Positions 34,676 through 63,624 of a stretch of 64,000 nt of DNA are shown piece after piece. Where the stretch lies: assembly GCA_964016885.1 (NCBI GenBank), contig OZ024740.1, positions 399,900,001 to 399,964,000 on the forward strand. Direction: 5' to 3'. The notes beneath the pieces were generated by a model. That model saw nothing but the letters and a program-made list of their open reading frames with translations. It made no database searches and was not told the origin of the DNA. Within the stretch, counting starts at the first letter, position 1. Each line of letters opens with the position of its first letter. Position numbers and translations under genes: made by a program. This DNA comes from Eledone cirrhosa. Lineage: Eukaryota.

Positions 34676-36592
34676 ATGAACGCTGCGTCCAACGATAATG
34701 GTGGTGGAGAGGCGGTAAGACTACAAAGCTCGCAGTCAACAACGTCTTCTTCACTAGATACTATAGAGATGGAAAGACAAAATGAAAATAAAAAAACGAA
34801 TTCACATCCACACAACACAAATGACACCAAACAGCTCAATGACAACAAAAATAACAGCAAAACCAATAATGATGATAAAAGCAACAATGATAACAACAAC
34901 AAAGAAAAAAATAAAGACAACGCCAATAACACCAGCATCAAAGACAACAACAACACCAAGGAAAATACGGATGATACCAACATCGGTGACAACAAGAATA
35001 ACAACAAGAATAACAACAATAATGACAACACCACCAATACGGATTCCACAAAGAAACCAAAAATCTCCTTTGCGGAGAAAGTTCAAAAGAAAGAACAATT
35101 GATATATCTCGACATAACAAATGCTGAACACCTTTTAAAGGACGCTAAGAGATATGTCACCTTCGAAAAAAATGGTGCTTTCAGCATCAATTCTCCGGTA
35201 GAAATTCGCAAGGAAACTGCTCTCAAAACGATAGTTTTTAGGACAGTTTCCAATTCTACCCGAAAACCAGTCCAATTGTCACAGAAAGATATTGAACTGG
35301 TTTTCAAAGATTCAATGAATGATATTGCATTCATTCAAAGAAGCAAACTTTTTGGGAGTATTTCGGTACTGATGAAGGATCAATTGACGGCCCAAAATTA
35401 CTCTGTGTCGCCAATTGTATCCAACCTGTACACCTTTTTCCCTACATACATGGGAAAAAGGACACAAAAGATCAGAATCACAAGTGTCACACCAAAGGTG
35501 AACATATGGTGGATACTGTGCGGCTTCATCAATTTTGATGAAGACAGAATACTGTCAGTAGGAAAGTCCCCCAGAGATGTATTCAATGGGACTAGCATTG
35601 AAGTTCTGGTGCAAATGAGCCCAGAGCGAATAGCTATGATCCCACAGCGTGTACTCCTGGACGGACTTACCTACATAAACCTTTCGGTTGAGGGTAGGCG
35701 GCCTTCATGTTACCATTGCTTTAGCAGGGGTCATCTGAGGGCTTCCTGTCCTAAACTAATGAACCAAAAAAAGGCTCTTCTGCCAACACCCATCAAAACA
35801 ACACAACCACCAACACCACCACTACAACAACAACACCAACACACAAAAATAACCACAACAAACACAGTCCCACCCAACCTCACTCCACCTAAAACCACTG
35901 CAAAATCACATACAGACACAACAGCTCCCCAAGACATACCCCTCCCCAATCACACAGACGATACAACAGATGAGGCTATCTCGCCATCACCCAGTGAAGA
36001 CGAGGGAGAACCCCATCGCTCGAAAAGAAAGAAAAGACATCACAAAAGCAAAAAACCAGCAAACACTACCACAAACATACAACCACCAACACAAACAACA
36101 AAAATATCACAAACAAAACCCCCACCTCCTGAAAACAAAATACCTACAACAAAACGAAAGCACACACAAGAACTACAGACAAAAACAAACACAACACAAG
36201 AAAATTACACTTACACTTACATAAACACTGAAAACAAAACACTAATGGAGACCATTACGAACGACCCTTCGGTTTTCACCGAAGGGAAAACTTTCGCCCA
36301 CTCTATAAAAAATAGCAAAAAAATGAACCTAAAACTGATTAGGGTCCCTATACAAACTTATAGGTCCCTAAAAGAAACATTTGAGAAGGATGTGGGGAAT
36401 TCCTGCGTGAAACCACTCAACCGCGTCCTTCTCAAATGCCTCCCCACCCCAGACACCCCCATCCCACCAGACCCCACCCCACAAAACATCTGCGTCCCCA
36501 CCCCGCCGGAAACCACAACCCATCCAGACAACCCCTCCAACACCCCCATGGAAATCGTGCGGCCTGGTCCCCAGGAGGCGAAGGGTGAGTGA
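34676..36592 (+). CDS. ORF1p of copy A (gag-like nucleic-acid-binding protein, single CCHC knuckle)
   Basis: CYHCFSRGHLRASC; Asn/Thr-rich N-terminus; KRKKRH basic patch; homologous to ORF1 of B, D and F. Confidence 0.88.
   Translation: MNAASNDNGGGEAVRLQSSQSTTSSSLDTIEMERQNENKKTNSHPHNTNDTKQLNDNKNNSKTNNDDKSNNDNNNKEKNKDNANNTSIKDNNNTKENTDDTNIGDNKNNNKNNNNNDNTTNTDSTKKPKISFAEKVQKKEQLIYLDITNAEHLLKDAKRYVTFEKNGAFSINSPVEIRKETALKTIVFRTVSNSTRKPVQLSQKDIELVFKDSMNDIAFIQRSKLFGSISVLMKDQLTAQNYSVSPIVSNLYTFFPTYMGKRTQKIRITSVTPKVNIWWILCGFINFDEDRILSVGKSPRDVFNGTSIEVLVQMSPERIAMIPQRVLLDGLTYINLSVEGRRPSCYHCFSRGHLRASCPKLMNQKKALLPTPIKTTQPPTPPLQQQHQHTKITTTNTVPPNLTPPKTTAKSHTDTTAPQDIPLPNHTDDTTDEAISPSPSEDEGEPHRSKRKKRHHKSKKPANTTTNIQPPTQTTKISQTKPPPPENKIPTTKRKHTQELQTKTNTTQENYTYTYINTENKTLMETITNDPSVFTEGKTFAHSIKNSKKMNLKLIRVPIQTYRSLKETFEKDVGNSCVKPLNRVLLKCLPTPDTPIPPDPTPQNICVPTPPETTTHPDNPSNTPMEIVRPGPQEAKGE
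36584..36590 (+). promoter_or_regulatory. Predicted splice donor at the ORF1 stop of A (G|GTGAGT); equivalents at 42337 (AG|GTAAGT), 51387 and 59956 (AG|GTAGGT)
   Basis: Match to the U1 consensus conserved in four diverged ORF1 ends. Confidence 0.65.
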
Positions 36593-36625
36593 TCTCTTTT
36601 CCTCTTTTAACTTTTCAGCACCAAC

Positions 36626-39600
36626 ATGGCCAATATAAGAGTTGGATGTGTGAACGTACGCGGCCTGGGGATGCCCTGGAAACAGGGCAAACTCTTAAAC
36701 GACCTCAGGTCGCACAGTTTGGATGTGGTAGCCATTTGCGAGTCCAGGATCCACGGCGAGCGACAGCTGGCCCCCATCTTCGATGACTTTGAGATCTACG
36801 CATCTCTCTGTCAACCGGGGGGTGGGGGCGGAGTTGCCGTTTTGCTGCGGAAACACCTGGGCCTCGTAACACAGACGGTACATCTGGACCCGGAGGGTCG
36901 ACTGGTGGTCCTAGACGTTGACGGTAGTGAAGGTAGAGCGTTCAGGCTGGTGGCCGCATATGCCCCATCCGGGACACCGCGGCCAGACTTCTTCAAACGT
37001 CTAGAGACTTTTCTGGGAACGTCCCGCTCCTTGCTTTTAGTGGGGGACTGGAATGGAATCCTAGATGCACGTTGGGACTATGTGGGAGCATGTCCCGATA
37101 AAGGGGGGTGTAACAGCCTCAAACAGTTAATCGACCGATTTGACCTGGCCGATAGATATCGACTAGATTTTCCGACTGCGCCACTGTGGACGTGGAGTAA
37201 TCGTAGCGGAACATCTAGATCGTACCTAGATAGGGTTCTAGTTAGAAATAAGGATAGGGACATGTTAAGCTGTCCACAAATGTTCATGGTTGCCTATTCA
37301 GATCACAAACTAGTGACCTGCATGGCCAACCTTGATAGAACCCATAGACAAGGACCCGGCTACTGGAAGCTGAACTTGTCGTTACCGACAAGCAAAGCCT
37401 ACAGTAGACGGATTAGCACTTTAGTTAAACAGCACTTGACAGGGGCCATTGTCAACAACAGATGGTGGTACTCTCTCAAGAGGGCAGTTAGATTAGACTC
37501 GATAATTTTTAGTAAAGAATTAGCGTTAGATAGAAATAGAACCGAGAAGGAACTGGTAGATAAAGTAGAAGAGGCTATTAGAAGTGGCAACGTAGCCAGC
37601 GTGCTAGCAACGAGAACGGCCTTGGACCAGTTCTTCGACGCAAAGCACGAGGGCTGCGTTGTCAGAAGCAAAATACGTGCTCTGGGAAACGAGGGAGCCA
37701 AAGCTGTTAACTGGGCCCGAGTGACGGAGGCAAAAAGTGGCAACAAGTCCACGATTCGGTCTTTGAAGGACCAAAACGCACGCGTGATACGTGAGCCGAA
37801 GCAGATGTGTGCGGCTTTTCAGCGGCACTTTGCTCGGCTGTTCGGGGGGAGCGGCGCGCCGGGAGAGGCTATGGATTTCGGTCCATACCTCGACGGCCTA
37901 CCGCGACTCTCGGACAGCGAGGCGAAGTTCTGCGAAAAGCCGATTTCAGCCACTGAGATAGGGGACGCGCTGAGCCAATGCGGCAAACGCAAATCTCCAG
38001 GTCTCGACGGTCTACCCTACGAATTTTACGTAGCAATGCCGGACTTATTCTCCGGTCTCCTGGAAGCGGTCTACTGCAACTGGCAACAGAACGGGAGAAT
38101 TCCCAGTTCTGTAACCGGGGGCGTGGTCACACTAATCAGGAAGGACGAGAATAAGGGGGATGACATAGGCAACTTCCGGCCCATAACTCTGCTAAACACA
38201 GAGTTACAGATTTTGGCCAAGGTGTTGGCAAAGAGGCTGGCGCTTGTCGTCGAGAACCTGGTGGGAGAAGCGCAGACATGCGCGATCCCGACCAGGTCCA
38301 TACACGACAACCTCCACCTCATGCGATACATCATAGAGAGGGTAGGGTGTAAACCCGGCTTTGGTGGGGCCCTGATCAACTTGGATCAGTCTAAGGCTTT
38401 CGATAGGGTTGACCATCGTTACCTGGATGCGGTGCTCGAGGCGGCAGGCTTCGGACCCGTGTTCAGGGGCTGGATTGCTGCAATGCACAACAGCAACATC
38501 TGCTCAAGGGTCAAGGTGAACGGTTACCTCTCGGAGCCGTTCCATATTACGCGATCCATTCGACAGGGATGCCCTCTCTCCTCCCTTCTGTACGTACTGA
38601 CTCTCGAGCCACTACTGCGGAAGCTGGAGCTATTGCAGGGCATCCCTCTGGAACCGGGACTGCGGAAAGCGGCGTCGGCCTACGCCGACGACGTGACAGT
38701 AATGGTGTCGAGCGCCTCGCAAATCGAGAAAGTCGGCACCTTACTAAAGGAATACGAAAGTCTCACAGGAGCGAAGCTGAACCGGGACAAGTCCATCGGT
38801 TTGCAACTCGGATCGTGGAGAGGCAGACCGATGCCTTCCGATGGCGTCGTCGGACGCTGGACGGAAGGACCGGTAAAGCTGCTCGGGGTCTGGTTTGGTC
38901 CGGACCTCCAGGTGGAGAAGAACTGGAACGAAGTGACGGCCAAGGTGTTTGCACTCACCCAGAAGTGGGCCGAGTGCAAACTATCCTTGAAAGGTCAAGC
39001 GGAGGTGGCGAACACTTTTATAGCGTCCGCCATCTACTACCGCTTGACCGTCGTGCCTTGTCCAGCCAAAACGCTCGCCAAAATGGAGCGCGCCCTCTTC
39101 CGATTCCTTTGGAAGAGGCGGGCTCCTTTGGTAAGAAGATCCATCTGCTGCCAACACCCTTCTAACGGAGGGCTGGGGATGCCGTGGTTGACGATGCGCA
39201 AACACGCGCTCAGGCTGCGGCATCTCTACGTATTCCTCACCGGACAACCGGTGTGGGCCCCGTTCGTGAGGCGAGCCTTCCCACGACTCGTCTCACTGAC
39301 CGATCTGCAGTCCTGGGTCAAGCAGAGACCGAGGAAAATGGGCGACTGGCACATCGAATGTGCTCAGGCGCTCACAGCCCTCTGGCAGGCGGACCCGGCG
39401 ATCAGTGGAGACTCCACTTCGTCATTCTATAGAGGGTTGGTCCGCAGCAAGTGCGACGACGCGCTCGGTGAAACTCTAGGCGGGGAGGAAGATGAACTGG
39501 CCAGTCTGTTCGGTAGGACCTTCCGCCCGGGACCGATGGACAACTTCCAAAAGTCCCTGGCCTGGCAGTGCTACCGAGGAGCTCTACCAGTTCGAGACAA

Positions 39601-40063
39601 GCTCTACAGACATGGGCGCCCGGGCAGGGACCCTGCAAAAAAGATCTGTCCGAGGTGCGTGCGAGACGAAGAAACCGTCGCGCACGCATTCATACACTGC
39701 CCGGGCGTCACTGACCTGTGGGGATATGTAGAACGACTATTGTCGCGGGTGGGACCAATCCAGTTGACCACCGAGTCCATTGTCATGATCAAACCGCCAC
39801 CCTCCTTCAAAAACGAAGGAGAGGCGGTTTTCCTTTGTGTGATAGCTATGGCGAAAGAGGTTGTATGGTGGACAAGGTTGAAAGGGCTGAGGTCAGACAC
39901 CTTTCTCTCCGGCCAACAACTGATTCTTTTTTTCAAATACCACTTTGGAAGAAGAGTCAGGATGGAGAGAGAGGTGCTGTACCCCAGCAAGTTTTATGAA
40001 AGGTGGGTGAAAGTGGCGAGAATGGCCCGAGTGAATGGGCCTTCTCTCTATATCAGCCTGTAG
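36626..40063 (+). CDS. ORF2p of copy A: APE endonuclease, reverse transcriptase and C-terminal zinc-binding motif
   Basis: NVRGL, CESR, YAP, GDWN, LDR, SDH (APE); KSPGLDGLP, FRPITLLN, DQSKAFDRVDH, RQGCPLS, YADD (RT); CPRC..ETVAH...HC. Confidence 0.95.
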   Translation: MANIRVGCVNVRGLGMPWKQGKLLNDLRSHSLDVVAICESRIHGERQLAPIFDDFEIYASLCQPGGGGGVAVLLRKHLGLVTQTVHLDPEGRLVVLDVDGSEGRAFRLVAAYAPSGTPRPDFFKRLETFLGTSRSLLLVGDWNGILDARWDYVGACPDKGGCNSLKQLIDRFDLADRYRLDFPTAPLWTWSNRSGTSRSYLDRVLVRNKDRDMLSCPQMFMVAYSDHKLVTCMANLDRTHRQGPGYWKLNLSLPTSKAYSRRISTLVKQHLTGAIVNNRWWYSLKRAVRLDSIIFSKELALDRNRTEKELVDKVEEAIRSGNVASVLATRTALDQFFDAKHEGCVVRSKIRALGNEGAKAVNWARVTEAKSGNKSTIRSLKDQNARVIREPKQMCAAFQRHFARLFGGSGAPGEAMDFGPYLDGLPRLSDSEAKFCEKPISATEIGDALSQCGKRKSPGLDGLPYEFYVAMPDLFSGLLEAVYCNWQQNGRIPSSVTGGVVTLIRKDENKGDDIGNFRPITLLNTELQILAKVLAKRLALVVENLVGEAQTCAIPTRSIHDNLHLMRYIIERVGCKPGFGGALINLDQSKAFDRVDHRYLDAVLEAAGFGPVFRGWIAAMHNSNICSRVKVNGYLSEPFHITRSIRQGCPLSSLLYVLTLEPLLRKLELLQGIPLEPGLRKAASAYADDVTVMVSSASQIEKVGTLLKEYESLTGAKLNRDKSIGLQLGSWRGRPMPSDGVVGRWTEGPVKLLGVWFGPDLQVEKNWNEVTAKVFALTQKWAECKLSLKGQAEVANTFIASAIYYRLTVVPCPAKTLAKMERALFRFLWKRRAPLVRRSICCQHPSNGGLGMPWLTMRKHALRLRHLYVFLTGQPVWAPFVRRAFPRLVSLTDLQSWVKQRPRKMGDWHIECAQALTALWQADPAISGDSTSSFYRGLVRSKCDDALGETLGGEEDELASLFGRTFRPGPMDNFQKSLAWQCYRGALPVRDKLYRHGRPGRDPAKKICPRCVRDEETVAHAFIHCPGVTDLWGYVERLLSRVGPIQLTTESIVMIKPPPSFKNEGEAVFLCVIAMAKEVVWWTRLKGLRSDTFLSGQQLILFFKYHFGRRVRMEREVLYPSKFYERWVKVARMARVNGPSLYISL

Positions 40064-40068
40064 GTTGA
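40040..40068 (+). promoter_or_regulatory. Predicted splice acceptor at the ORF2 stop of A (CCTTCTCTCT...TAG|G); equivalent AG ends at 45786, 48892, 54861, 57536 and 63381
   Basis: Pyrimidine tract plus TAG|GT, followed by purine-rich enhancer-like sequence. Confidence 0.6.
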
Positions 40069-40546
40069 GGAAAAGGAGGAGGAGAGGAAAGGAGTACAAG
40101 CTCTTCGTACTCCTGGAGATGAGGGTTGCACATTTTTTTGGGGGGTATGTGTTACCCATATAAACTGTCTCCCTCTATTGGGGAAAATCGACTAACTTTT
40201 AAATTCCATCTGTGATAACATTTTACACGTTTTTATTGTATGTAAACTTCCCCCTTTGTATTTGTCCCCTTCTTTTGTGCCCCTGTGGCTAATAAAGAAA
40301 TATATCTATCTATCTATCTATCTATATCTGGGATGGACACACGCGTATAACTTGCTGAGTAAGTTCTGTTTAAATTTCTATAGAAATTCTTGTCTGTTAA
40401 CTTTAATTTTTGTACCATTTTGTAGAGGGACTGCCAGGTGAAACTTTGATCTGGTCAGTCTCTCAAAATATTCTACGCCTTTAGGCGAAATAGTTAAACC
40501 AAAAAAAAAAAGTTTTTTCTTGTTGAAAAGTCAATATTTTTTTTAA

Positions 40547-42340
40547 ATGGCCGAAGCTTCTTCACCAACATTCGAAGGAGGAAAGGGGAAGATAAACTTA
40601 CAGCTTCCCCCTGCCACTGTCACAGTAGCAGAGGTCAAGAAGAAAGGTCAGCCAGAGGAAGAATTCTCTCCACCTGTTAACCGACAACTTGACGTTGCCA
40701 TGGCAACAACCCAAAGAACCAGCGGCACCAGCAACAGCAACAACAACAACAATGCGACGGACGAAAACAACACCAATAACAATAACAACAACAACAAGAC
40801 CAATAACGGTGACAACAACAACAATGATAACAACAACACCACCAACGACAACAACAACACAAACAAACAAAATTTCTCCTTCGCCGAGACGACAAGGAAA
40901 ACCCTCGACTATCTGCCAGTAGATATAACCAAAGCGAAGGAGCTACTGGCAGATGCGAAAAAATATATAGTGTACGGAGAAAATGGTTCATTCACAATCC
41001 ATTCCCCCCCGGAACTAAAAAGCCAGAGACTCCTAAACACGGCCATGTTTAGGACAATCTCGAACAAAAGTAAAAAGCCAGCTCAACCATCACAGAGTGA
41101 GATAGAGCTGGTTTTAAAAGACGTCATGAAGGACATCACCTTCATTCAGAAGGATAGACTCTACGGGAGTCTATCCATTCTCATGAAGGACAGGGACACA
41201 GCAGTGAAACTGTCCATCAAACCAATCACATCCACCGCATACACCTTCTACCCTACGTACATGGGTAGAAGAACACAAAAAATAAAAATCCACACCATCC
41301 TGCCGATTATGGACATATGGTGGGTTTTGACAGGTTTCCTGGACCTGGAGGATGACATGCTGGTGTCCATGGGAAAGGCATCGGGTGACGCGTTCAGTGG
41401 AACGAGCCTCGAACTTGTAGTTCAAATGAGGCCCGAAAGGATCGCGCAGATCCCTGAACGCGTCATACTGGATGATCTAACCTTCATCAACATTACCGTT
41501 GAGTGTAGACGGCCCTCGTGTTACCTCTGCGGAACCAGAGGTCACCTGAGGGCTGTCTGTCCCCAACTTAATAAGAAAACCCCAATCCTGCCTACACCAC
41601 CAACAACTGCACAACCAACACAATCACCACAACTACCACTACAAAAACAACCATCACAGCTCAAACCAAAACAAAACAATGTCCAACCCATCCCCTCCAC
41701 TCAAAAAACAAAAACAATTTCCAAAACACCCGCACCGCAAACACAACCCGAAAATATACGCCTCCCCTCCAACGCGGAAGATGACCCTAGTTCGTCGTCA
41801 GACGAGGAGGAGCACTTCCACACAATCAAAAGAAAAAAAAGAAAACACACCTCAGACACACAAATGAAAACAACCCCTCCCCAAAACATAACACTTACAC
41901 CAACACAAAAGAGCTCACAACAACAGCAAACAAAAAACACCACACAAAAACAAAAACATGCATACACATACATAAACACAAGAAACAAAAAACTGTTAAA
42001 CATTGTGTACAACAACAATCTAATAAAAACACAAGGGCCTAACTTCACCCAGGCAGGGGATTTCCCCCACCTCAAAATGATTAAGGCCCCACAGGACACC
42101 TATAAAACTTTAAAAAACAATTTTAAAGAGGACGTGGGTCCCCCCTGCGTCGGGCCCATTAACCGCGTCCTCCTAAAAAACTACCCCACCCCCTCCCCAA
42201 ACACCCACACAACTCCAAGCTCCCCAACCACACAACACACTGATGCCCCTACACTTCCACAAACCACCACCCCACCCAACAACCCATCCCCCACTCTAAT
42301 GGAAATTATGCAGCCCGATACCCGGGACGCAGAGAGGTAA
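40547..42340 (+). CDS. ORF1p of copy B
   Basis: CYLCGTRGHLRAVC knuckle; conserved YMGRRTQ, YTYIN and NRVLLK blocks. Confidence 0.88.
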   Translation: MAEASSPTFEGGKGKINLQLPPATVTVAEVKKKGQPEEEFSPPVNRQLDVAMATTQRTSGTSNSNNNNNATDENNTNNNNNNNKTNNGDNNNNDNNNTTNDNNNTNKQNFSFAETTRKTLDYLPVDITKAKELLADAKKYIVYGENGSFTIHSPPELKSQRLLNTAMFRTISNKSKKPAQPSQSEIELVLKDVMKDITFIQKDRLYGSLSILMKDRDTAVKLSIKPITSTAYTFYPTYMGRRTQKIKIHTILPIMDIWWVLTGFLDLEDDMLVSMGKASGDAFSGTSLELVVQMRPERIAQIPERVILDDLTFINITVECRRPSCYLCGTRGHLRAVCPQLNKKTPILPTPPTTAQPTQSPQLPLQKQPSQLKPKQNNVQPIPSTQKTKTISKTPAPQTQPENIRLPSNAEDDPSSSSDEEEHFHTIKRKKRKHTSDTQMKTTPPQNITLTPTQKSSQQQQTKNTTQKQKHAYTYINTRNKKLLNIVYNNNLIKTQGPNFTQAGDFPHLKMIKAPQDTYKTLKNNFKEDVGPPCVGPINRVLLKNYPTPSPNTHTTPSSPTTQHTDAPTLPQTTTPPNNPSPTLMEIMQPDTRDAER

Positions 42341-42364
42341 GTGCCTTTTCTCTTCACCACCAAC

Positions 42365-45300
42365 ATGGCTATGCTAAGAGTAGGCTGTTTAAATGCGCGT
42401 GGCCTGGGCTCAACTTGGAAGCAAGCAATGCTTCTAAATGACCTCAGGTCACAACGTATAGATGTGATGGTTATTTGTGAGGCCCGGATCAGCAACGTGG
42501 GGCGGCTGGCCCCCACCTTTGATGACTTTGAGATGCACGCATCTCTCTGTCAGCCCGGAAGTGGGGGTGGAGTTGTCGTTCTGCTGCAAAAACATCTGGG
42601 TCTCGCAACACAGATGGTACATTTGGACCCGGACGGTCGACTAGTGGTTCTGGACCTTGGCAGTGGTAAAGGCGGAGCGTTTAGGTTGGTAGCCGCTCAA
42701 TGCGGCCGAACTTCTTCCATCGTCTGGAGACTTTTCTAGGGACGTCCCGCTCCTTGCTATTAGTGGGGGACTGGAATGGTATCCTAGATGCACGCTGGGA
42801 CTACGTAGGGGCCTGCCCTGATAGAGAGGGGTGTAATAGCCTCAAAGGGTTAATCGGTCGATTTGACCTGGCCGATAGATATCGACTAGATTTTCCGACT
42901 GCGCCAACCTGGACTTGAGCAAATCGTAGCGGATCATCTAGGTCGTACCTAGATAGGTTCTTAGTTAGAATTAAGGATAAGGACTTTTTAAGTTGTCCAA
43001 AAATGCGCATGGTTGGCTATTCAGACCACAAATTAGTGACCTGCATGGTCAACCTTGACAGAACTCATAGACAGGGACCCGGTTACCGGAAGCTCAACTT
43101 GTCCTTACCGGCAAGTAAGGCTTACAGGAACCGGATTAGCACTTTAGTTAAGGAGCGGTTGACGGGCGCCATCGTCAACAGCAGGTGGTGGGGATCTCTC
43201 AAAAGAGAGATTAGAGTAGTCTCTATAGAATTTAGTAAGGAGTTAGCCTCAAATAGAAATAGGAAGGAAAGGGAGTTGCTAGATAGTGTAGAAGAGGCAA
43301 TTAGAAGCGGCGACGTGGCCAGAGTGCTAACGTCGAGAACGGCCCTGGGCCAGTTCTTCGACGCGAAACACGAAGGCTGCATCGTCCGAAGCAAAATACG
43401 TGCTCTGGGAAACGAGGGGACCAAAGCTGTTAGCTGGGCCCGCGTGACAGAAGCCAAAAGAGGGAGCAGATCCACTATCCGGTCTTTGCGAGACCAGGAT
43501 GGACGGGTGATCCTTGAACCTAAGCAGATGTGCGAGGCTTTTCAAAAGCACTTTGCCGGATTGTTCGGAAGGGGCGGGGGGCCGGTTGGGGACGTGGACT
43601 TCGGTCCATACCTCGACGGCCTGCCGCGTCTCTCGGACAGGGAGGCGAAGTCCTGCGAGGAGCCGATTTCAGCTGCTGAGATAGAGGACGTGCTGAGCCA
43701 ATGCGGCAAACGCAAATCTCCGGGTCTCGATGGTCTTCCATACGAACTATATCTAGCTATGCCGGACTTGTTCCCCGAACTCCTCGAGGCGGTCTACTGC
43801 AACTGGCAACAGAACGGGAGAATTCCCTGTGCTGTGACCAAGGGCGTAGTCATGCTAGTGAGGAAGGACGAGAACAAGGGGGACGATATAAATAATTTCA
43901 GGCCCATAACTCTGCTAAATACAGAGTTACAGATTTTGGCCAAGGTGCTAGCAAAGAGGTTGGCGCTTGTCGTGGGCAACCTGGTGGGAGATGCGCAGAC
44001 ATGTGCTATCCCGTCCAGGTCCATCCACGATAACCTCCACCTCATGCGATACATCATAGAGAGGGTTGGGAACGAACCCGGCTTTGGTGGGGCCCTGATC
44101 AACTTGGATCAATCTAAGGCATTCGATAGGGTCGACCATGGTTACCTGGATGCGGTGCTAGCGGCGGCAGGCTTCGGACCCGTTTTCAGGGGCTGGATCA
44201 ATGCCATGCACAGCAGCCGCATCTGCTCTAGGGTCAAGGTGAACGGCTACCTCTCGGAGCCGTTCGAAATCGCGCGGTCCATCCGACAGGGGTGCCCTCT
44301 CTCCTCCCTTCTGTATGTAATGACTCTAGAGCCACTGCTGCGGAAGTTGGAGTTGTTGCAGGGCATCCCTTTGGAACCGGGATTGCGGAAAGCGGTGTCA
44401 ACCTACGCCGATGACGTAACAGTAATGGTGTCGAAGGCCTCGGAAATCAGGGCGATCGGCACCTTACTGGAGGAGTACGAAAGGTTTACAGGGGCTAAGC
44501 TGAACCGGGACAAGTCGATCGGTCTGCAACTCGGCACGTGGAGGGGCAGATCGATGCCCTCCGATGGCGTCGTCGGGCGCTGGACGGAGGGCCCGGTGAA
44601 GTTGCTCGGGGTCTGGTTCGGACCAGACCTCCAGGTGGAAAAGAACTGGGGTGAGGTGACGAACAGGGTGTTTGCACTGACCCAGAAGTGGGCCGAGTGC
44701 AAACTGTCCCTGAAAGGACGGGCGGAGGTGGCGAACACTTATATAGCGTCCGTCATCTACTACCGCCTGACCGTTGTGCCTTGCCCAAGGGAAACGCTCG
44801 CCAAAATGGAGCGCGCACTCTTCCAATTCCTTTGGAAGAAGCGGGCTCCTATGGTGAGGAGATCCATCTGCTGTCAACACCCTTCGAAAGGAGGGCTGGG
44901 GATGCCGTGGCTAATGATACGTAAACACGCATTAAGGCTACGGCACCTTCAGGTATTCCTCTCCGGTCAACCGGTGTGGGCCCCGTTTGTGAGGCGAGCC
45001 TTTCCCAGACTCGTCTCACTCACCAAGCTGCAATCCTGGGTCAAGCAAAGACCGAGAAAACTGGGCGCCTGGCACACCGAGTGTGCCCAGGCACTCACGG
45101 CTCTCTGGCAGGCGGACCCGGCTGTCAGTGGAGAATCCACCTCGTCATTCTATAGAGGGCTGGTGGTTAGCAGGTGCGACGACGCCCTCGGAGAAGCCCT
45201 AGGCATGGAGGAAGACGAACTGGCTAACCTGTTCGGTAGGACATTCAGCCCGGGACCCATGGATAACTTCCAGAGGTCCCTGGCCTGGCAATGCTACAGA

Positions 45301-45786
45301 AGGGCTCTGCCCGTTCGAGAAAGGCTCTACAGACACGGGCGCCCGGGTAGGGACCCATCGAAAAAGATCTGTCCCAGATGCGTGTGCGACGAGGAAACCG
45401 TTGCACACGCATTGGTACACTGCCCGGGCGTTGCCGATCTGTGGGGTTATATCGAACAACTGCTGTCAAGGGTGGGACCAATCCGGTTGACCACCGAGTC
45501 TATTGTAACGATCAAGCCGCCTCCCCTCTTCAAAAACGAAGGAGAGGCGGTGTTTCTGTGCGTAATAGCCATGGCGAAAGAGGTTGTATGGTGGACGCGT
45601 CTGAAAGGACTGAGGTCAGACACCTTTCTCTCTGGCCAACAATTGGTCCGTTTCTTCCGATATCATTTCGGAAGAAGGATCAGGATGGAGAGAGAGGTGC
45701 TGCAGCCCAGCCGTTTCTATGAAAGATGGGTGAAAGTGGCGAGAATGGCCCGTGTGAATGGGCCTTCACTCTACATCAGACTATAG
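42365..45786 (+). pseudogene. ORF2 of copy B (frameshifting deletion near 42700, TGA at 42916-42918)
   Basis: ORF pieces 42341-42739, 42700-42918 and 43003-45786 align colinearly with ORF2 of A. Confidence 0.88.
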
Positions 45787-49155: not shown

Positions 49156-49156
49156 A

Positions 49157-54400: not shown

Positions 54401-54861
54401 TCTACAGACACGGGCGCCCGGGCAGGGATCCCTCAAAAAAGATTTGCCCTAGATGCGTGCGTCACGAAGAAACCGTTGCGCACGCATTGGTGCAATGTCC
54501 GGGCGTGGCTGATCTGTGGGGCTACGCCGAACGACTGCTGTCGCGGGTGGCGCCAATTCAATTGACCGCCGAGTCCGTGATGACAATCAAGCCGCCTCCC
54601 CTCTTCACAAAGGAAGCAAAGGCGGTTTTTCTGTGCGTAATAGCCATGTTGAAAGAGGTTGTTTGGTGGACACGATTGAAAGGTCTGAGGTCAGGCAACT
54701 TCCTCTCTGGCCATAGTCTGGTCTACTTCTTCCGATATCACTTCGGAAGAAGGATAAGAATGGAGAGAGAGGTGCTTGGCCACAGGCAGTTTTATGAAAG
54801 GTGGGTGATAGTGGCGAGAATGGCTCGTGTAAATGGGCCTTCTCTGTATACCATCCTGTAG
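51424..54861 (+). pseudogene. ORF2 of copy D (no AUG; single in-frame TAG at 52093-52095; QG motif changed to KE)
   Basis: 51430-52095 and 52111-54861 lie in the same frame and cover the full APE-RT. Confidence 0.85.
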
Positions 54862-55097
54862 GTAAAGAAGTAAAGGAGAGGGGAGCACCTTCTCCATGTG
54901 CTCCCCGGGCAAAGGATTGCACACTTTTTCGGGGGGTGTGTGCAACCCCCATCACGTCCCCTCCCTTTCGAGATTATTTTCGATTATTTTCATGTTATAC
55001 CCTTTTTACTCGATTGTATGTAAACTTCCCCCTTTGTATTTGTCCCTTCTTTTTATGCCTTTATGGTAAATAAAGAAATATATCTATCTATCTATCT

Positions 55098-57770
55098 TTT
55101 CGGTCCCGTGTTCAGAGGATGGATCGAGGCGATGCACACCATTTTTATATTTTTTACACGACTGTATGTAAAATCTCCGGCATGTCTTTGTATTGCGGAG
55201 GCGAAAAGTGGCAACAAGTCCACGATTCGGTCTTTGAAAGCCCAACACGGACGCGTGCTACTTGACCCCAAGCAAATGTGCGCGGCCTTTCAGCTGCACT
55301 TTGCGCGACTATTTGAGTAGAACGACGGTGAGCCGAACGGGGAAATGGACTTTAGTTCATACCTCGACGGCCTGCCGCGTCTCTCGAACACGGACGCCGA
55401 GTTCTGCGAAAGACCGATCACGGACACTGAGATACGGGACACTCTGGGCCGCTGCGGGAAACGCAAGTCACCCGGTCTAGATGGTCTACCCTACGAATTT
55501 TACATAGGCATGCCGGACTTGTTCTCTGGCGTCCTCGAAGCCGTCTACTGCAATTGGCAGCAGAACGGGAGAATTCCCAGTTCTGCAGGCAAGGGCGTAG
55601 TAACGCTGATCAGGAAAGACGAGAACAAGGGGGACGAAATTAACAACTTCAGGCCCATAACTCTGCTCAACACAGAGTTAAAGATTTTGGCCAAGGTGCT
55701 AGCGACGAGGCTGGCGCTTGTCGTCGAGAACCTGGTAGGGAAAGCGCAAACGTGTGCAATCCCGACCAGGTCCATACACGACAACCTCCACCTCATGCGA
55801 TACATCATAGAGAGTGTGGGTAGTAAACCCGGCTTCGGTGGGGCTCTGATCAACTTAGATCAGTCTAAGGCATTCGATAGGGTCGACCATCGATACTTGG
55901 AAGCGGTTCTCAAGGCGGCCGGTTTCGGTCCCGTGTTTAGAGGATGGATCGAGGCGATGCACACCAACATCTGCTCGAGGGTCAAGGTGAACGGCTACCT
56001 ATCGGAGCCATTCGCAATCACGCGTTCCATTCGACAGGGATGCCCTCTCTCCTCCATTCTGTATGTATTGACTCTAGAGCCACTACTGCGGAAATTGGAG
56101 GTGTTGCAGGGCATCCCCCTAGAACCGGGACTGCGCAAAGCGGCGTCGGCTTATGCCGACGACGTAACGGTAATGGTGTCGAGCACCTCGGAAATCGGGG
56201 TGATCGGCAACTTACTGAAAGAATACGAAACGCTGACGGGAGAAAAACTAAACCCGGACAAGTCTGTCGGTTTGCAACTCGGTACGTGGAGAGGCAAACC
56301 GATGACATCCGACAGCGTCGTTGGACGCTGGACGGACGGACCGGTGAAATTGCTCGGGGTCTGGTTCGGTCCAGACCTCCAGGTGGAGAAAAACTGGAAC
56401 GAGGTCACGGCCAAGGTGTTTGCACTCACTCAGAAGTGGGCAGAGTGCAAACTGTCCTTGAAAGGTCGAGCGGAGGTGGCGAACACTTTCATAGCGTCCG
56501 TCATCTACTACCGCTTGACTGTCGTGCCTTGTCCCCGTGAACACCTCGCCTAGATGGAACGCATGCTCTTCCAGTTTCTGTGGAAGAAGCAGGCTCCGCT
56601 GGTGAGGAGATCCGTCTGCTGTCAGCACCCTTCCAACGGAGGGCTGGGAATGCCGTGGCTGATGATGCGCAAACATGCGCTGAGGCTGCGGAATTCCAGG
56701 TATTCCTCACCGACCCCCAACCGGTGTGGGCACCGTTTGTGAGACAGGCTTTCCCACAGCTCGTCTCGCTAACGGAGCTGCAGTCCTGGGTGAAGAAAAG
56801 ACCGAAAACGATGGGCGCCTTGCACATTGAATGCGCTCAGGCGCTCACAGTCCTTTGGCAAGCGGGCGCAGCAATCAGTGGAGACTCCACTTCGACATTC
56901 TATAGAGGGATTGTACGTTACAAGCGCGACGACGTGCTCGGAGAGACTCTGGGCGTCGAAGACGATGAGCTCACCAGTATGTTTGGTAGGACTTTCCGCC
57001 CGGGACCTATGGACAACTTCCAGAGGTCCCTGGCCTGGTAGTGCTACCGAGGAGCTCTACCGGTTCGTGACAAGATCTACAGGCACGGACGCCCTGGCAG
57101 GGATCCTTCCAAGAGGACGTGTCCAAGATGTGCGCAGGACATTGAAACAGTTCTGCACGCAATTGTACACTGCCCGGGCGTAAGCGACCTGTGGAACTAT
57201 GCAGAACAACTGCTGTCGCGTATGGGACAAATCCAGTTGACTACCGAGTCCATAGTAAGGATCAAACAGCCAGCCTCTTTCAAAAACGAAAGAGAGTCGG
57301 TTTTCCTCTGTATGGTGGCTATGGTGAAAGAAGTTATATTGTGGACGAGGTTGAGAGGACTGAGGACAGATGCCTTTCTCTCCGGACAACAATTGATTCC
57401 CTTCTTTAAGTATCACTTTAGAAGGAGAATCAGGGTGGAAAGAGAGGCACTGCACCCCAGTAAATTTACTGAAAGGTGGGTGAATGAAGCGAAAATGGCC
57501 CGAGTGATTGGGCCTTCTCTGTTTATAAGCCTGTAGGTTGAGGAAGAGAGCAAAAGGAAGAAAGGAGCACTTGCACAACACGCTCCTGGAGTTGAGGGTT
57601 GTTCTATCGACGGGGTATTAAACAAACCATTTGTGGCGCCTCCCCCCTACTGGGGATTTCGATTGTTGTAATTGTTTGTTTTTATATCTTTTACACGACT
57701 GTATGTAAAATCCCCGGCATGTCTTTGTATTGTCCCCTTTTCTTGTTGCGCCCTTGTGGCTAATAAAGAA
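55098..57770 (+). mobile_element. Tx1-clade copy E, 5'-truncated, disrupted, with templated patches at its 5' junction
   Basis: ORF2 remnant 55196-57536 with stops at 55318, 56551 and 57039 and a frameshift; 3' end most like A. Confidence 0.9.
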
Positions 57771-57993
57771 ATCTATCTATCTATATCCGGATGGCATAGA
57801 CGTTCTTCACATCGGCTCCGCGAATATTGGAGATATTACGTGTTAACAGTAAGTGTTTGTCTGTATTCTTGCGTTATTGTGTTAATTAACCCCCTTGCCT
57901 GGGTCTTCGGACATTAGGGTTAATTTATTTCACCCCTCCTGGGGTGAAATTTTTCATCCTAAAAATCTTGCAATTGTCTCTACGCTAGTGGTA

Positions 57994-59959
57994 ATGGAAG
58001 CCATTACCACAGGTAACGATGACACGCTCACCAAACAAACTGAAGGAGAGCCGGTAGCTGAGGCAACAAGCCACCCTACTGAAAGAATAATGATTATTAG
58101 AAACATTGAAAAAATGGAACCTAACCCTAATGAAAAAAATGTGAAAAAAATTAACTCGGAGAAATTGCCAAAATTAATGGATGCCGTTTCGACTTTTCAC
58201 AGCGCCACGCCCACCAGCACAGGTGAAAGAGAAGTAGTAGCTGTAACTACAAGTCTCTCGGATAATGAAAATATAAGTGAAGATTTTAAAAAAATGGAGT
58301 CTAACCCCAAAGGGGAAAAAAATGTGAACGAATACACCAACATAAATAACACAAACACAACAAAAACTACTTTCGCCCAGACAACAAAAAAATCAATCAC
58401 ATATACACCTATTGACTTAACTGCCACCACAGAGAAACTGGCAGAAGCAAAAAAGCACGTAGTCTTGGGGGAGAACGGAATGTTTTCCATTAATCCCCCC
58501 CCCAGAATTCAAGAAAACGAGACAAGAAAACACTGTTCTGTTTAGAACAGTCCTAAACAGCACAAGGAAGCCAGCACAACCCACCCAAACGGAGATAGAG
58601 TTGGTCCTAAAAGACCATATGAAGAATATTCTCTTCATACGAAAGGACCGACTCTATGGCAGCATTTCTTGTTTTAACAAAAGACAAAGAAACAGCACAG
58701 AGGCTTTCCATAAGCCTACTCACATCAACAGCATACAGTTTCTATCCCTCCTACATGGGTAGAAGAACTCAGAGAATCAAAATACAGACAATGCTGCCCA
58801 CAATGGACTTTTGGTGGGCTATTGCTGGCTTCATAGACATGGGCGAGGACACAGTGCTGTCAATGGGGAAGGCATCTGGAGATGCGTTCCTGGGAATGGG
58901 CCTCGACCTACTAGTACAAATGAGGCCCGAAAGAATAGCGCAAATCCCGGATCGCATCTGGCTGGATGACCTCACCCCAATATATATAATTGTAGAGGGG
59001 AGAAGACCAGCATGCTATTCATGCACGGAAAGGGGACACGTTAAGGCTAACTGCCCGAATCGTATCCCCCCAAAAGGACTATTGCCCACACCCACCACAA
59101 ACAGTACACCAACACCACCCACCTCCAAAAATACACTAACACCACCAACACGCACAGCAAACAAAATACAGACACCACCAACCACAAGCACAACACAAAC
59201 ATCACCACCACCAGAACCAAACACAAGCACGACACAAAAATCACCACCACCATCACCAACCACAAGCACGACACAAACATCACCACCACCACCACAAAAC
59301 ACATTCCAAACAAATAATAAAAAAAACAGCAACAATTCTACCCTCCCCCGCAAAAAAAAAAAAAACCAGACACCACGTCCCTCCCACCTAGCGCTGAAGA
59401 GTTTCCCCCAACTTCTGAAGAAGAAGGAGGAGAAGCCTTCAGACAAGTTAAAAGGAAAAAACGAAAGCACACACCCAGCACACCACAACAACAAATAACC
59501 CACACACAAACACCAACTCCAATCAAAAACACCCCACCCTCGACAAATAAAAATAAATCTGCGCCTCCCCTCTTCGAAACATTGACAGCATCACAAAAAA
59601 AAGACTTTACAATACACATATATAAATAAAGAAAACAAAAAACTGTTTAAATTAATAAACAATAGCCCTTTGGTGCAGACCGAAGGGCCAAACTTTATCT
59701 CAACAGAGAACTTCACTCATTTAAAAATGATAAAGGTCCCTCTGGACCTTTATCGTTCCTTAAAAGAACAATTTAAACAGGACGTGAGCCTCCCCTGTTT
59801 AAAACCGTTAAATTGTGTCCCCTTGAAAGACTTCCCCATAACCTCCCCTCTCCCTGACACAACTCCAAATACCCCACACCGCCACAAACCATCCCTCCAC
59901 CCAACACACCCGACCCCATGGAAATTACGCAACCCGGACTCCGGGAAACGGAGAGGTAG
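57994..59959 (+). pseudogene. ORF1 of copy F
   Basis: CYSCTERGHVKANC knuckle; ends MEITQPGLRETER-TAG; several frameshifts, some in homopolymers. Confidence 0.8.
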
Positions 59960-59990
59960 GTGCTTTTCTTTCTTCACTTTCAACACCAAA

Positions 59991-62900
59991 ACACATCAAT
60001 TGAGAGTTGGTTGTTTGAATGCGCGTGGCCTGGGCTCAGCTTGGAAGCAAGCAAAGCTTCTAAGTGATCTCAGGTCACGAAGTATAGATGTGATGGTTGT
60101 TTGCGAGAGTCGGATCAGCAGCGTGCGACAGCTGGCTCCCGCCTTCGATGACTTTGAGATGCACGCATCTCTCTATCAACCCGGAGGTGGGGGTGGGGTT
60201 GCCGTACTGCTGGATAAACGTCTGGCTCTCGACGTACAGATTGTTCACTCGGACCCGGGGGGTCGATTACTGGTGCTGGACGTCGGAGGTGGTGAAGGCG
60301 GGGCTTTCAGACTGGTCGGTCTTTATGCCCCCTTCGGGGCTGAAAGAGCCGACTTCTTCCAGTGTCTGGAGACTTTTCTAGGAACGTCGCGTTCCCTGCT
60401 TTTAGTGGGGAACTGGAATGGAATCCTAGATGCGCGTTTGGGCATGTCCCGATAGAGGGGGGTGTAGCAGCCTCAAGGGGTTACTCGATCGATTCGACCT
60501 GGTCGATAGATTTCGACTAGATTTTCCAACTGTGCCAACCTGGACTTGGGCAAACCGCAGTGGTCAATCTAGATCGTACCTAGATAGGTTTTTGGTTAGG
60601 AGTAAGGATAGGGACGTATTTAGTTGTCCAGAATTGCTCATGGTTGGCTATTCAGATCACAAATTAGTGACCTGCGTGGTCAACCTTGATAGAACGCATA
60701 GACAAGGTCCCGGATACTGGAAGATGAACTTGTCATTGCCGGCAAAGGAAGCTTACAGGAACCGGATTAGTAGCTTAGTTAAGATGCGGTTGACGGGAGC
60801 GATCGTCAACAGCAGGTGGTGGGTATCTCTAAAGAGAGAGATTAGAGTAAGTTCGATAGGTTACAGTAAGGAACTAGCGGCGAATAGAAATAGGAGGGAA
60901 AGAGAGTTGACAGATAAACTAGAAGAGGCGATTAGGAGCGGAGACGTGGCCAGAGTGTTAGCGTCGAGAACGGCGTTGAGCCAGTTCTTTGACGCGAAGC
61001 ACGAAGGCTGCGTTGTCCGAAGTAAAATACGTGCTTTAGGAAACGAGGGGACCAAAGCTGTTAGCTGGGCCCGCGTGACAGAAGCCAAGAGTGGGAATAA
61101 ATTCACCATTCGGTCTTTGCGAGACCAGGATGGACGGGTGATCCTTGAACCGGATGTGCGAGGCCTTTCAAAGGCACCTAGCTCGACTGTTCGGAGGGGG
61201 CGGGGGGCCGGACGGGGATGCGGACTTCGGTCCATACCTCGACGGTCTACCGCGTCTTTCGAGCGGCGAAGCGGAGTGCTGCGAAAGGCCAATCACAGCC
61301 ACTGAAATCGGGGAAGCGCTCAGCCAATGCAGCAGACGCAAATCTCCGGGTCTCGATGGTCTACCATACGAACTTTATTTAGCTATGCCGGTCTTTTTCT
61401 CCGAACTCATCGAGGCTGTCTATTGCAACTGGCAACAGAACGGGAGAATTCCCTGTTCTGTGACCAAGGGCGTAGTCACGCTAGTGAGGAAGGACGAGAG
61501 CAAGGGGGACGACTTAAGTAACTTTAGGCCCATAACTCTGCTGAATGCAGAGTTAAAGATTTTGGCCAAGGTGTTAGCGAAGAGGTTGGCGCTTGTGGTG
61601 GGTGGCTTGGTGGGAGACGCGCAGTCATGCGCTATCCCGTCCAGGTCCATTCACGACAACCTCCACCTCATGCGATACATCGTAGAGAGGGTTGGGAACG
61701 TACTCGGCTTTGGTGGGGCCCTGATCAACTTGGATCAATCTAAGGCGTTCGATAGGGTCGACCAGGGTTACCTGGATGCGGTGCTAGCGGCGGCGGGCTT
61801 CGGACCCGTTTTCAGGGGCTGTATTTCTGCCATGCACAGTGGCAACGTCTGCTCTAGGGTTAAAGTAAACGGCTACCTCTCGGAGCCGTTTCAAATCACC
61901 CGGTCCATCAGGCAGGGGTGCCCCCTCTCCTCCCTTCTGTACGTATTAGCTCTCGAGCCACTGCTGCGGAAGTTGGAGTTGCTGCGGGGCATACCCCTGG
62001 AACCGGGATTGCACAAAGCGGTCTCGGCCTATGCCGACGACGTAACAGTAATGGTGGCGGACACCTCGGAAATCGGGGCGATCGCCACCCTACTGGAGGA
62101 ATACGAAAGGCTGACGGGGGCTAGGCTGAACCGGGACAAGTCAGTCGGTTTGCAACTCGGAACGTGGAGGGGCAAACCGATGCCGTTAGACGGTGTCGTC
62201 GGACGGTGGACGGAGGGCCCGGTGGAGCTGCTCGGAGTCTGGTTCGGACCGGACCTCCAGGTGGAGAAGAATTGGGGCGAGGTGACGAGCAGGGTGTTTG
62301 CGCTGACCCAGAATTGGGCCAAGTGCAAACTATCACTGAAAGGTCGGGCGGAGGTGGCGAACGCTTACATAGCGTCCGTCATCTACTACCGCCTGACCGT
62401 CGTGCCTTGCCCTAAGGAAACGCTCACCATCATGGAGCGCATGCTCTTCCAGTTCCTCTGGAAGAAGCGGCTTCCCATGGTGAGGAGATCCATCTGCTGC
62501 CAGCACCCTTCGAAAGGAGGGCTGGGTATGCTGTGGCTGTTGATGCGTAGGCACGCATTGAGGCTACGGCATCTACAGGTATTCCTCACCGGTCAGCCGG
62601 TGTGGGCCCCGTTTGTGAGGCGAGCCTTCCCACAGCTCGTCTCGCTCACCAAGCTGCAATCCTGGGTGAAGCAAAGACCGAGAAAACTGGGCAACTGGCA
62701 CACCGAGTGTGCCCAGGCGCTCACGGCTCTCTGGCAAGCGGACCCGACTATCAGTGGCGAATCCACCTCGACATTCTATAGAGGGCTGGTGGCTAGCAGG
62801 GGCGACGACACCTTTGGAGAGTCGCTAGGCATGGAGGAGGACGAACTGGCCAGCCTGTTCGGTAGAACTTTCGGCCCGGGACCCATGGACAACTTCCAGA

Positions 62901-63381
62901 GGTCCCTAGCCTGGCAGTGCTACCGGGGGGCTCTGCCCGTTCGAGAAAAGCTCTACAGACACGGGCGCCCGGGCAGGGATCCCGCGAAAAAGATCTGTCC
63001 CAGATGCGTGCGCGACGAGGAAACCGTTGCGCACGCACTGGTACACTGCCCGGGCGTTGCCGATCTGTGGGGCTACGTCGAACGACTGCTGTCGCGTGTC
63101 GTGCCGATTCGATTGGCCGCCGAGTCCGTGGTGAACATCAAGCCGTCTCCTCCCTTCAGAAATGAAGCAGAGGCGGTCTTTCTATGCGTAATAGCCATGA
63201 TGAAAGAGGTTGTGTGGTGGACACGCCTGAAAGGTCGGGTGACTTTCTCTCCGGCCAACACCTGGTTTACTTCTTCCGATACCACTTCGGAAGAAGGATC
63301 AGGATGGAGAGAGAAGTGCTTGGCCCCAGACAGTTTTATGAAAGGTGGGTGAAAGCGGCGAGAATGGCTCGTGTTCTGTAG
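59991..63381 (+). pseudogene. ORF2 of copy F
   Basis: APE-RT pieces in different frames (shifts near 60435, 61150 and 63235); YADD present. Confidence 0.85.
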
Positions 63382-63624
63382 GTGAAGAAGTGAAGAGGAA
63401 AGGGGGAGCGCCTCCTCTCTGGGCTTCCCCCGGGAAAAGGGTTGCACACTTTTCGGGGGTATGTGCAATCCCCAACACGCCCCCTCCCTTTTGAGGACTT
63501 TTTATTATTATATTATTTTATTGTTATTCCTTTTTTCTTTACTCGCATTTATGTAAACTCCCCCTGTGTATTTGTCCCCTTCTTTTGTGCCCTCGTGGCA
63601 AATAAATAGAAATCTATCTATCTG

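What the first reader, a model, noticed from the sequence alone, without database searches (positions are those of the whole stretch)
36584..63385. ORF2 of these LINEs looks like a precisely excisable intron, giving an ORF1-only mRNA with a regenerated stop
Seen in sequence: each full-length copy has a splice-donor consensus overlapping the ORF1 stop, and each ORF2 stop is a TAG|G acceptor after a pyrimidine tract and before a GAA/GGA-rich stretch. Joining them gives: B (intron 42337-45786) AG|G TGA; D (51387-54861) AG|G TAA; F (59956-63381) AG|G TGA. These keep the ORF1 C-terminus (...ER*) identical to the unspliced form. In A the donor is one base out of phase (AAG G|GTGAGT, intron 36585-40063), and the downstream exon has one extra base (GTTGA instead of GTGA), giving G|GT TGA. 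The phase change is therefore compensated 3.5 kb away. Truncated C has the B-type acceptor and truncated E the A-type. Inference: splicing sets the ORF1p:ORF2p ratio, places the stop just after the exon junction (avoiding NMD), and could act as a host- or tissue-controlled off switch. Established analogy: subgenomic gag RNAs made by splicing in copia-type LTR elements; I know of no such whole-ORF2 intron in Tx1/L1-group LINEs. Caveats: only one compensating event is visible; A, B, C and E have another AG 7 nt upstream; F has lost most of its pyrimidine tract.
Basis: partly seen in the sequence, partly recalled or inferred. Interest (0 to 1): 0.93.

Follow-up and report, generated by a model that had tools for sequence, protein, structure and literature searches.

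The report
Splice signals flank LINE ORF2
A large, young family of jumping genes in an octopus-like genome keeps a splice-donor signal at the end of its first gene and usually an acceptor at the end of its second, suggesting, but not yet showing, that it cuts out the whole enzyme gene to make a message for the packaging protein alone.

Summary
The motifs are at the stated coordinates. The window holds an array of L1-group, Tx1-like LINEs; at least 5,375 genomic copies carry the ORF2 start motif, and named homologues are from octopods. The donor is the strong part: an island G|GTRRGT sits at the ORF1 end in all 12 subfamilies aligned and in deeper lineages M2 and O, in codon phases 0, 1 and 2, while ORF1's last residues and the spacer vary. 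The ORF2-stop AG ranks first of 133 conserved AG columns but is lost in M/M2. Stop regeneration is a trend, not a rule: O, A, H, B, D, G, K and F2 have it; A2, A3, I, J and M/M2 do not. A's 'extra T' is shared with sister subfamilies whose donor is in phase 2, so it is no strict compensation. No junction was seen in sequencing contigs (no run labelled RNA), and no spliced retrocopy exists beside 1,517 B/I/J copies. Verdict: a probably selected U1 site; whole-ORF2 splicing about 55-60% likely, unproven.

The parts
34451..40300 (+). LINE copy A, full length, both ORFs open, young subfamily
   Evidence: 40 of 40 scored hits 99-100% identical
34676..36592 (+). ORF1 of A (638 aa; zinc-knuckle-like CxxCxxxxHxxxxC motif)
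   Evidence: Pfam zf-CCHC only at E 0.049 in B's ORF1
36582..36590 (+). Donor motif of A, phase 1 (intron would start at 36585)
36591..36625 (+). Pyrimidine-rich inter-ORF spacer directly after the donor
   Evidence: 79-89% pyrimidine at +7..+25 in 14 of 14 lineages; no conserved fold
36626..40063 (+). ORF2 of A (1145 aa; APE endonuclease, RT, zf-RVT) = most of the candidate intron 36585-40063
40038..40068 (+). Candidate acceptor of A: pyrimidine tract, proximal AG (40056), ORF2 stop TAG, GT TGA
40064..40300 (+). 3'UTR of A (candidate last exon) with a covarying hairpin and AATAAA at 40291, followed by (TCTA)n
40328..46055 (+). LINE copy B: ORF1 40547-42340, donor 42337 (phase 2), ORF2 42365-45786 (frameshifted in this copy), acceptor 45786
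46056..49156 (+). 5'-truncated copy C, B-type acceptor at 48892
49256..55085 (+). LINE copy D: ORF1 to 51390, donor 51387 (phase 2), ORF2 start ACG in this copy (ATG in its relatives), acceptor 54861
55198..57770 (+). 5'-truncated copy E, A-type acceptor at 57536
57790..63615 (+). LINE copy F, degraded and atypical: donor 59956, acceptor 63381 with a copy-specific loss of the pyrimidine tract
34354..34449 (.). (TCTA)n microsatellite before A; similar runs follow A, C, D, E and F (target or tail repeat)

Best explanation
These are L1-group, Tx1-like bicistronic LINEs of an octopod. U1 snRNP recognises a 5' splice site that overlaps the end of ORF1 and is followed by a U-rich spacer. In part of the transcripts it is joined to the AG of the ORF2 stop codon (or the AG 7 nt upstream), removing the whole 3.45-3.48 kb ORF2 and giving a ~2.3 kb monocistronic ORF1 mRNA that ends in the element's own 3'UTR and poly(A) signal; unspliced RNA remains the template for ORF2p and for retrotransposition. 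This would raise ORF1p over ORF2p and free the ORF1 message from a 3.7 kb 3' tail. Shown: the motifs, their conservation, their phase history. Inferred: U1 binding, splicing, choice of acceptor, protein ratio. The spliced RNA would have to be a very poor substrate in trans.
For: Donor -1G,+1G,+2T,+5G,+6T invariant in 12 of 12 subfamilies while only 60 of 245 four-fold ORF2 sites (24.5%) and 5 of 26 AGR third positions are invariant; the three protein-free positions alone give about 0.19 x 0.245 x 0.245 = 0.011 (my arithmetic), before asking that they match the U1 consensus. It is kept in phase 2 (A2, A3, B, D, G, I, J, K, M, M2), phase 1 (A, H, O) and phase 0 (F2, ORF1 stop 12 codons further on), so the stop codon does not explain it; +3/+4 toggle among AA, AG, GA. 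M's ORF1 is 26-31% identical to A's with another C-terminus. No conserved RNA fold at the donor (-1.06 kcal/mol). The ORF2-stop AG has the best mean acceptor score of 133 AG columns shared by >=10 subfamilies (my own simple score); TAG|GT is invariant in 11 subfamilies while +3..+27 vary; four-fold third positions in the last codons are 68% pyrimidine (36 of 53) against 46% in the rest of ORF2 (lineages not independent). Phase-1 lineage O has TAG|NN TGA with NN = AC, TT, AA or AG in 4 donor-acceptor pairs and in 8 of 8 ends mapped among 20 fetched; phase-2 B, D, G, K have TAG|G TRA; H (phase 1) stops one codon later. The closest full-length ORF1 homologues from other records end in DQGK and PEGKS (P0005, P0006), as phase-1 O and H do, a protein-level hint only. 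Precedent: Ty1/Copia make a spliced subgenomic gag mRNA (PMC5580714, passages seen).
Against: No junction observed in any sequence data. No spliced retrocopy: 0 matches for A-lineage, B/I/J and G/K junction patterns; 1 unrelated match for D/F with 3 in the control; of 1,517 B/I/J ORF1 ends the 7 with a purine at +8 are all unspliced, although a spliced copy needs only ~260 nt to show the junction and ORF1-only derivatives are mobilised efficiently in trans in another L1-clade element (TRE5-A.2, PMC3159450, passages). Stop regeneration fails in A2, A3, I, J; a stop within 4 codons is seen in 7 of 14 lineages against 13 of 42 lineage-phase combinations, weak on its own. M and M2 have lost the TAG; their AG|GT lies 7 nt downstream and ranks 46 of 266. 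+1/+2 vary in O, N and L130. No conserved branch-point consensus upstream of the acceptor (by eye). The pyrimidine tract is coding (P-S-L-Y-I) and weak in H. Two copies (L112, L116) lack the donor GT; they lie 36 kb apart and may be one duplication. A conserved donor in human L1 is explained by an overlapping RUNX3 site (PMC5860796, passages).
Confidence: 0.57

Rival explanations
1. The donor is a real U1 site but is not spliced to the ORF2-stop AG. It protects the long transcript from premature cleavage and polyadenylation, or aids its stability or export, or splices to other acceptors; TAG|GT is kept for termination context or a small hairpin.
For: Donor is universal while the acceptor is not (M/M2). 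No spliced retrocopies. In EVD the U1 site also suppresses premature termination (PMC5580714, passages). A 3-bp stem closes over the ORF2 stop in the consensus fold. M has a better-scoring acceptor near the end of its 3'UTR.
Against: ORF2 holds almost no A(A/T)TAAA to suppress (0 in A and B, 1 in D). The ORF2-stop AG is the best conserved acceptor of the intron. TAG|NN TGA in O and TAG|G TRA in the phase-2 clade follow donor phase. The 3-bp stem has little covariation (one pair with two double changes).
Confidence: 0.23
2. No U1 role: the motif is a by-product of ORF1 termination and ORF2 reinitiation signals (purine after the stop, tandem stops, pyrimidine spacer for ribosome tethering) and of shared descent.
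For: In phase-2 lineages +2..+4 is the ORF1 stop and +5 G is the base after it. F2 arose from phase 2 by a 14-nt deletion and may carry the donor only by descent. M/M2 keep a phase-1 TAA after the ORF2 stop without an acceptor.
Against: The motif is unchanged in phase-1 lineages A, H and O, where it codes G-E, G-K or G-R, and +6 T and +1 G have no termination role; M2 and M rebuilt the ORF1 C-terminus yet end on the same motif.
Confidence: 0.12
3. The donor opens a mini-intron of 39-62 nt across the spacer, using the spacer's pyrimidines and an AG in the first ORF2 codons, and fuses ORF1 to ORF2.
For: An in-frame AG lies 31-62 nt after the donor in 13 of 14 lineages; the pyrimidine tract is in the right place.
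Against: No in-frame AG in F2 within 130 nt; the AG is a conserved Arg codon; ORF2's ATG is kept; introns this short are rare in most animals (own knowledge); no retrocopy with this deletion among 1,517 B/I/J ORF1 ends was caught, although such RNA would move in cis.
Confidence: 0.05

Closest known systems
Ty1/Copia spliced subgenomic gag mRNA (Arabidopsis EVD shGAG; Drosophila copia recalled)
   Same: A splice donor at the end of the structural gene yields a separate mRNA for the abundant structural protein while the unspliced RNA serves for the enzyme and the genome (PMC5580714, passages).
   Different: LTR element with one polyprotein ORF; in EVD a short intron is coupled to premature termination. 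Here a bicistronic non-LTR element, and the candidate intron is the entire ORF2 with the normal 3' end kept. Shown by RNA there, not here.
Tx1-clade microsatellite-targeting LINEs (Kibi, Koshi, crocodilian Tx1)
   Same: Two ORFs, APE-RT-zf-RVT ORF2, insertion at microsatellites (PMC4494074, passages).
   Different: Repeats here are (TCTA)n and, for M and O, (TTA)n; no splicing was mentioned in the passages seen; clade membership was not tested on a tree with named Tx1.
Human L1 splicing and SpIREs
   Same: L1-group RNA carries functional splice sites and spliced RNA can be retrotransposed (PMC5860796, passages).
   Different: SpIREs use a 5'UTR donor, keep ORF2, damage ORF1 or the promoter and are dead ends (about 2% of full-length copies). 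Here the intron would remove ORF2 cleanly, and no spliced copies are in the genome.
HAL1 (half-L1) and Dictyostelium TRE5-A.2
   Same: ORF1-only derivatives of L1-clade elements that keep the 3' end (PMC5753468 passages; PMC3159450 passages).
   Different: They are separate DNA elements; here the ORF1-only form would exist as RNA only, and no such DNA copy was found.

Membership tests
L1 group LINE | ORF2 with APE endonuclease, RT and C-terminal zf-RVT | tested here: met
   Pfam PF03372, PF00078, PF13966; best solved structure human L1 ORF2p, E 4e-50, against R2 at 4e-22
L1 group LINE | Separate ORF1 upstream, 5'-truncated copies, poly(A) signal at the 3' end | tested here: met
   AATAAA after the ORF2 end in 53 of 54 copies
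Tx1 clade | RT clusters with named Tx1 elements | not testable with these tools
Tx1 clade | ORF1 with CCHC zinc knuckle | tested here: inconclusive
   C-x2-C-x4-H-x4-C column; Pfam zf-CCHC E 0.049, below cut-off; homologues named CCHC-type in Octopus bimaculoides
Tx1 clade | Target preference for a repeat | tested here: inconclusive
   33 of 53 copies have ATCT or (TCTA)n within 30 nt after AATAAA; M and O end in (TTA)n; target versus tail was not separated
U2-type spliceosomal intron | 5' splice-site consensus | tested here: met
   5-7 of 7 free positions match MAG|GTRAGT (recalled consensus) in 12 of 12 subfamilies
U2-type spliceosomal intron | Pyrimidine tract and YAG acceptor | tested here: inconclusive
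   Top of 133 conserved AG columns; rank 1-7 in 9 subfamilies, 16 in H, 18 in B, lost in M
U2-type spliceosomal intron | Branch point 18-40 nt upstream | tested here: inconclusive
   Only a partial GTGAA(T), absent in A3 (read by eye)
U2-type spliceosomal intron | Removed from RNA at GT-AG | tested here: inconclusive
   No run labelled RNA; junction not among the 15 joints shown of 364; no spliced retrocopy
Copia-type subgenomic gag strategy | Spliced RNA is the main template for the structural protein | not testable with these tools
   Needs polysome or ribosome profiling
HAL1 | Genomic ORF1-only copies that propagate | tested here: not met
   None at the predicted junctions

The most novel reading that the evidence does not exclude
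An octopod LINE clade has evolved a two-mRNA expression strategy not described for non-LTR retrotransposons: its whole ORF2 is a retained-or-removed spliceosomal intron, maintained across lineages whose ORF1 is under 35% identical and re-tuned after at least three frame changes, so that host splicing sets ORF1p output and the share of transposition-competent RNA, while the spliced RNA is kept out of retrotransposition.
Probability: 0.5. Interest if true: 0.82.

Novelty: new variant of a known kind. Interest (0 to 1): 0.62.

Why it matters
How bicistronic LINEs make far more ORF1p than ORF2p is usually put down to inefficient reinitiation on one RNA (own knowledge). A whole-ORF2 intron would be a different answer, convergent with Ty1/Copia, and would give the host spliceosome a lever on a family with thousands of young copies. 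It would also mean that LINE expression measured in cephalopod tissues may partly be enzyme-less RNA. It is directly testable: one RT-PCR (about 0.3-0.5 kb against 3.8 kb) or a re-mapping of existing RNA reads.

Tried and rejected
RNA evidence: no RNA holder listed. Four contig runs were laid on A+B; the predicted joints are not among the 15 shown, 349 more were hidden, so this is no evidence either way. In run X4 (kind unrecorded, 88 million letters) summed contig depth is higher over B's ORF1 3' half (765-992) and 3'UTR (2,592) than over the first ORF2 bins (71-151), but A shows no such clear step, ORF2 has spikes up to 844, and contig depth cannot rank parts of a gene, so it is not counted. 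Spliced retrocopies: none; ten odd hits were fetched and were matches inside ORF1 of lineage O, microhomology deletions near but not at the donor (L219, also L211), an inversion or unrelated DNA. The O pattern (100 of 253 listed) showed no spliced form but would miss the commonest predicted O junction. Protein searches for junction-extended ORF1: one search found nothing, only P0005; one search gave 150 proteins, few full length, without DNA. Two metagenome scans found no relative, so no DNA outside this genome was examined. Rejected: hairpin explanation of the donor; strict phase compensation; need of a regenerated stop for NMD escape; ORF2-only mRNA through the spacer AG (present only in the A lineage). 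Post hoc and not counted: all six lineages without a distal stop have an upstream AG in ORF2's frame that would reuse ORF2's own stop. Rows dropped: one search left out L098 and L116 and copies without an ORF2 end; one search left out L098, L116, L130, L133, L148, L151 (chimeric or lone copies) and used 55 copies; 12 of 20 O regions held no ORF2 end. Earlier findings of the scan: nothing. Literature: searches (listings and abstract starts) showed no LINE whose ORF2 is spliced out whole; the library lacks most subscription journals and Repbase Reports, and the HAL1 origin paper and Belancio 2006 were not held, so they are recalled only. No supplements were read.

Full report
What is there. From 34451 to 63615 the window is a head-to-tail array of six LINE copies, A to F, separated by (TCTA)n runs. 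ORF2 of A is intact (1145 aa) with APE endonuclease, RT and zf-RVT; its best solved relative is human L1 ORF2p. ORF1 has a zinc-knuckle-like motif. The genome is 3.0 Gb; A, B and D each have 40 of 40 scored hits at 98-100% identity and 5,375 places match the ORF2 start motif. Named homologues come from Argonauta hians and Octopus species, so the host is inferred to be an octopod and the element L1-group, Tx1-like; Tx1 membership was not tested on a tree.

The observation. To go beyond six copies I fetched 60 copies picked from the first 100 listed places to cover every motif variant, 20 copies of a family M found as a nested 3' end, 20 best hits of an Argonauta ORF2, 13 copies of an older family O and 20 O 3' ends. 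Trees of the 5' and 3' parts of ORF2 define the subfamilies (midpoint root only).

The donor is conserved beyond what coding explains. The GT is present in 58 of the 60 copies (L112 and L116 share a deletion). Across 12 subfamilies -1G, +1G, +2T, +5G and +6T never vary and +3/+4 are AA, AG or GA, whereas 60 of 245 four-fold sites in ORF2 are invariant and the spacer varies in length and sequence from +7 on. It is the only GT column with 5 or more of 7 consensus matches in all 12. It lies in phase 2 in ten lineages, in phase 1 in A, H and O, and in phase 0 in F2, where the ORF1 stop has moved 12 codons into the spacer; phases were checked on long open frames upstream, for example 390 codons in L056. 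M, whose ORF1 is 26-31% identical to A's, and M2, with yet another C-terminus, end on the same motif. It is always followed by 79-89% pyrimidines and has no conserved fold. I read this as a selected U1 site; that is inference.

The acceptor is good but not universal. The ORF2-stop AG has the best mean score of 133 conserved AG columns and ranks 1-7 of about 270 AGs in 9 subfamilies, 16 in H and 18 in B (my own simple score, not trained on this genome). TAG|GT is fixed in 11 subfamilies while the next 25 bases vary. But the tract is coding, no branch point stands out, +1/+2 vary in O, N and L130, and M/M2 end ORF2 with TAA and have only a weak AAG|GT 7 nt later. A second AG 7 nt upstream exists in A, A2, A3, B, G, I, J and K.

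Phase and stop. A stop within four codons occurs in 7 of 14 lineages against 13 of 42 lineage-phase combinations. On the other side, the old family O has a phase-1 donor (ORF1 ending DQGK or DQGR) and TAG followed by NN TGA, where NN is AC, TT, AA or AG and TGA stays: 4 donor-acceptor pairs and 8 of 8 mapped ends among 20. So phase 1 goes with NN TGA (O, A; H one codon later) and phase 2 with G TRA (B, D, G, K, window F, L133), with F2 stopping after three codons. On the tree the NN TGA type looks ancestral, A's 'extra' base old, and A2/A3 a mismatched state. This is a trend built on three or four independent events with four clear exceptions. A regenerated stop is not needed to escape NMD, since any stop in the last exon does (own knowledge).

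Is it spliced? Not shown. No retrotransposed spliced copy was found for any subfamily tested; for B/I/J the count is 0 beside 1,517 unspliced ORF1 ends. This weighs against abundant germ-line splicing unless ORF2p acts strictly in cis. In human L1, cis preference is the rule and spliced copies that keep ORF2 make about 2% of full-length elements (PMC5860796, passages); in Dictyostelium an ORF1-only derivative moves well in trans (PMC3159450, passages). The covarying hairpin in the 3'UTR would be kept in the spliced RNA.

Mechanism. Most likely (0.57): alternative removal of ORF2 gives an ORF1-only mRNA beside the full-length RNA, as Ty1/Copia do for Gag (PMC5580714, passages). Rivals: U1 binding without this splice (0.23; EVD shows that a U1 site can suppress early termination, but ORF2 here has almost no poly(A) signals); by-product of termination and reinitiation signals (0.12); mini-intron fusing ORF1 to ORF2 (0.05; no in-frame AG in F2).

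Novelty. Ten literature searches (listings and abstract starts) found no LINE with a whole-ORF2 intron; a recent Octopus vulgaris repeat annotation lists 13 recently active L1-Tx1 families and has no word beginning with 'splic' (PMC13282606, passages). Passages of PMC4494074, PMC5753468, PMC2911113 and PMC4640811 were also seen; no full texts or supplements were read, and subscription journals are largely missing. It works like the Copia strategy if splicing is real; it is not a HAL1 element. New variant of a known kind; interest 0.62.

Noticed in passing
L056-L066, L136-L141 (subfamily F2); window 59990-60010: This multi-copy subfamily has no ATG at the ORF2 start: the ORF1 stop TAG overlaps an ATA in the ORF2 frame. 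Non-AUG reinitiation or mobilisation in trans.
   Followed up: no
L168-L207 (M, M2), L228-L257 (O): Related lineages end in (TTA)n instead of (TCTA)n; M2 seems to have lengthened ORF1 by duplicating the C-terminal segment of O and shifted the donor from phase 1 to 2; several G-to-A changes cluster at the M ORF2 stop, where A-to-I editing could restore an AG (speculation).
   Followed up: partly
window 40001-40008 and matching places in D, E, F: A second donor-like site (AAG|GTGGGT, Arg-Trp-Val codons) lies 60 nt before the ORF2 stop in 10 of 12 subfamilies.
   Followed up: no
window 40090-40115 and matching 3'UTRs: An 8-bp hairpin with compensatory changes 25-55 nt into the 3'UTR, a candidate recognition element for ORF2p.
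   Followed up: partly
L098, L148, L151, L188, L230, L231: Chimeric copies whose 5' and 3' parts come from different subfamilies, pointing to template switching or recombination in the arrays.
   Followed up: partly
P0005 (603 aa on a 2,209-base record): A full ORF1 homologue on a record just long enough for ORF1 plus short UTRs; its DNA could not be read.
   Followed up: no
window 2314-2745: GIY-YIG endonuclease fragment (Pfam PF01541, E 5e-7), perhaps a Penelope-like remnant.
   Followed up: no
window 11850-12040, 18130-18500, 23440-23670, 24700-25100: Several copies of a 100-270 bp dispersed repeat in both orientations, probably a SINE or MITE.
   Followed up: no
window 55098-55197: About 100 bp before the ORF2 part of E resembles E's own 3'UTR, a possible template jump at the 5' junction.
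   Followed up: no
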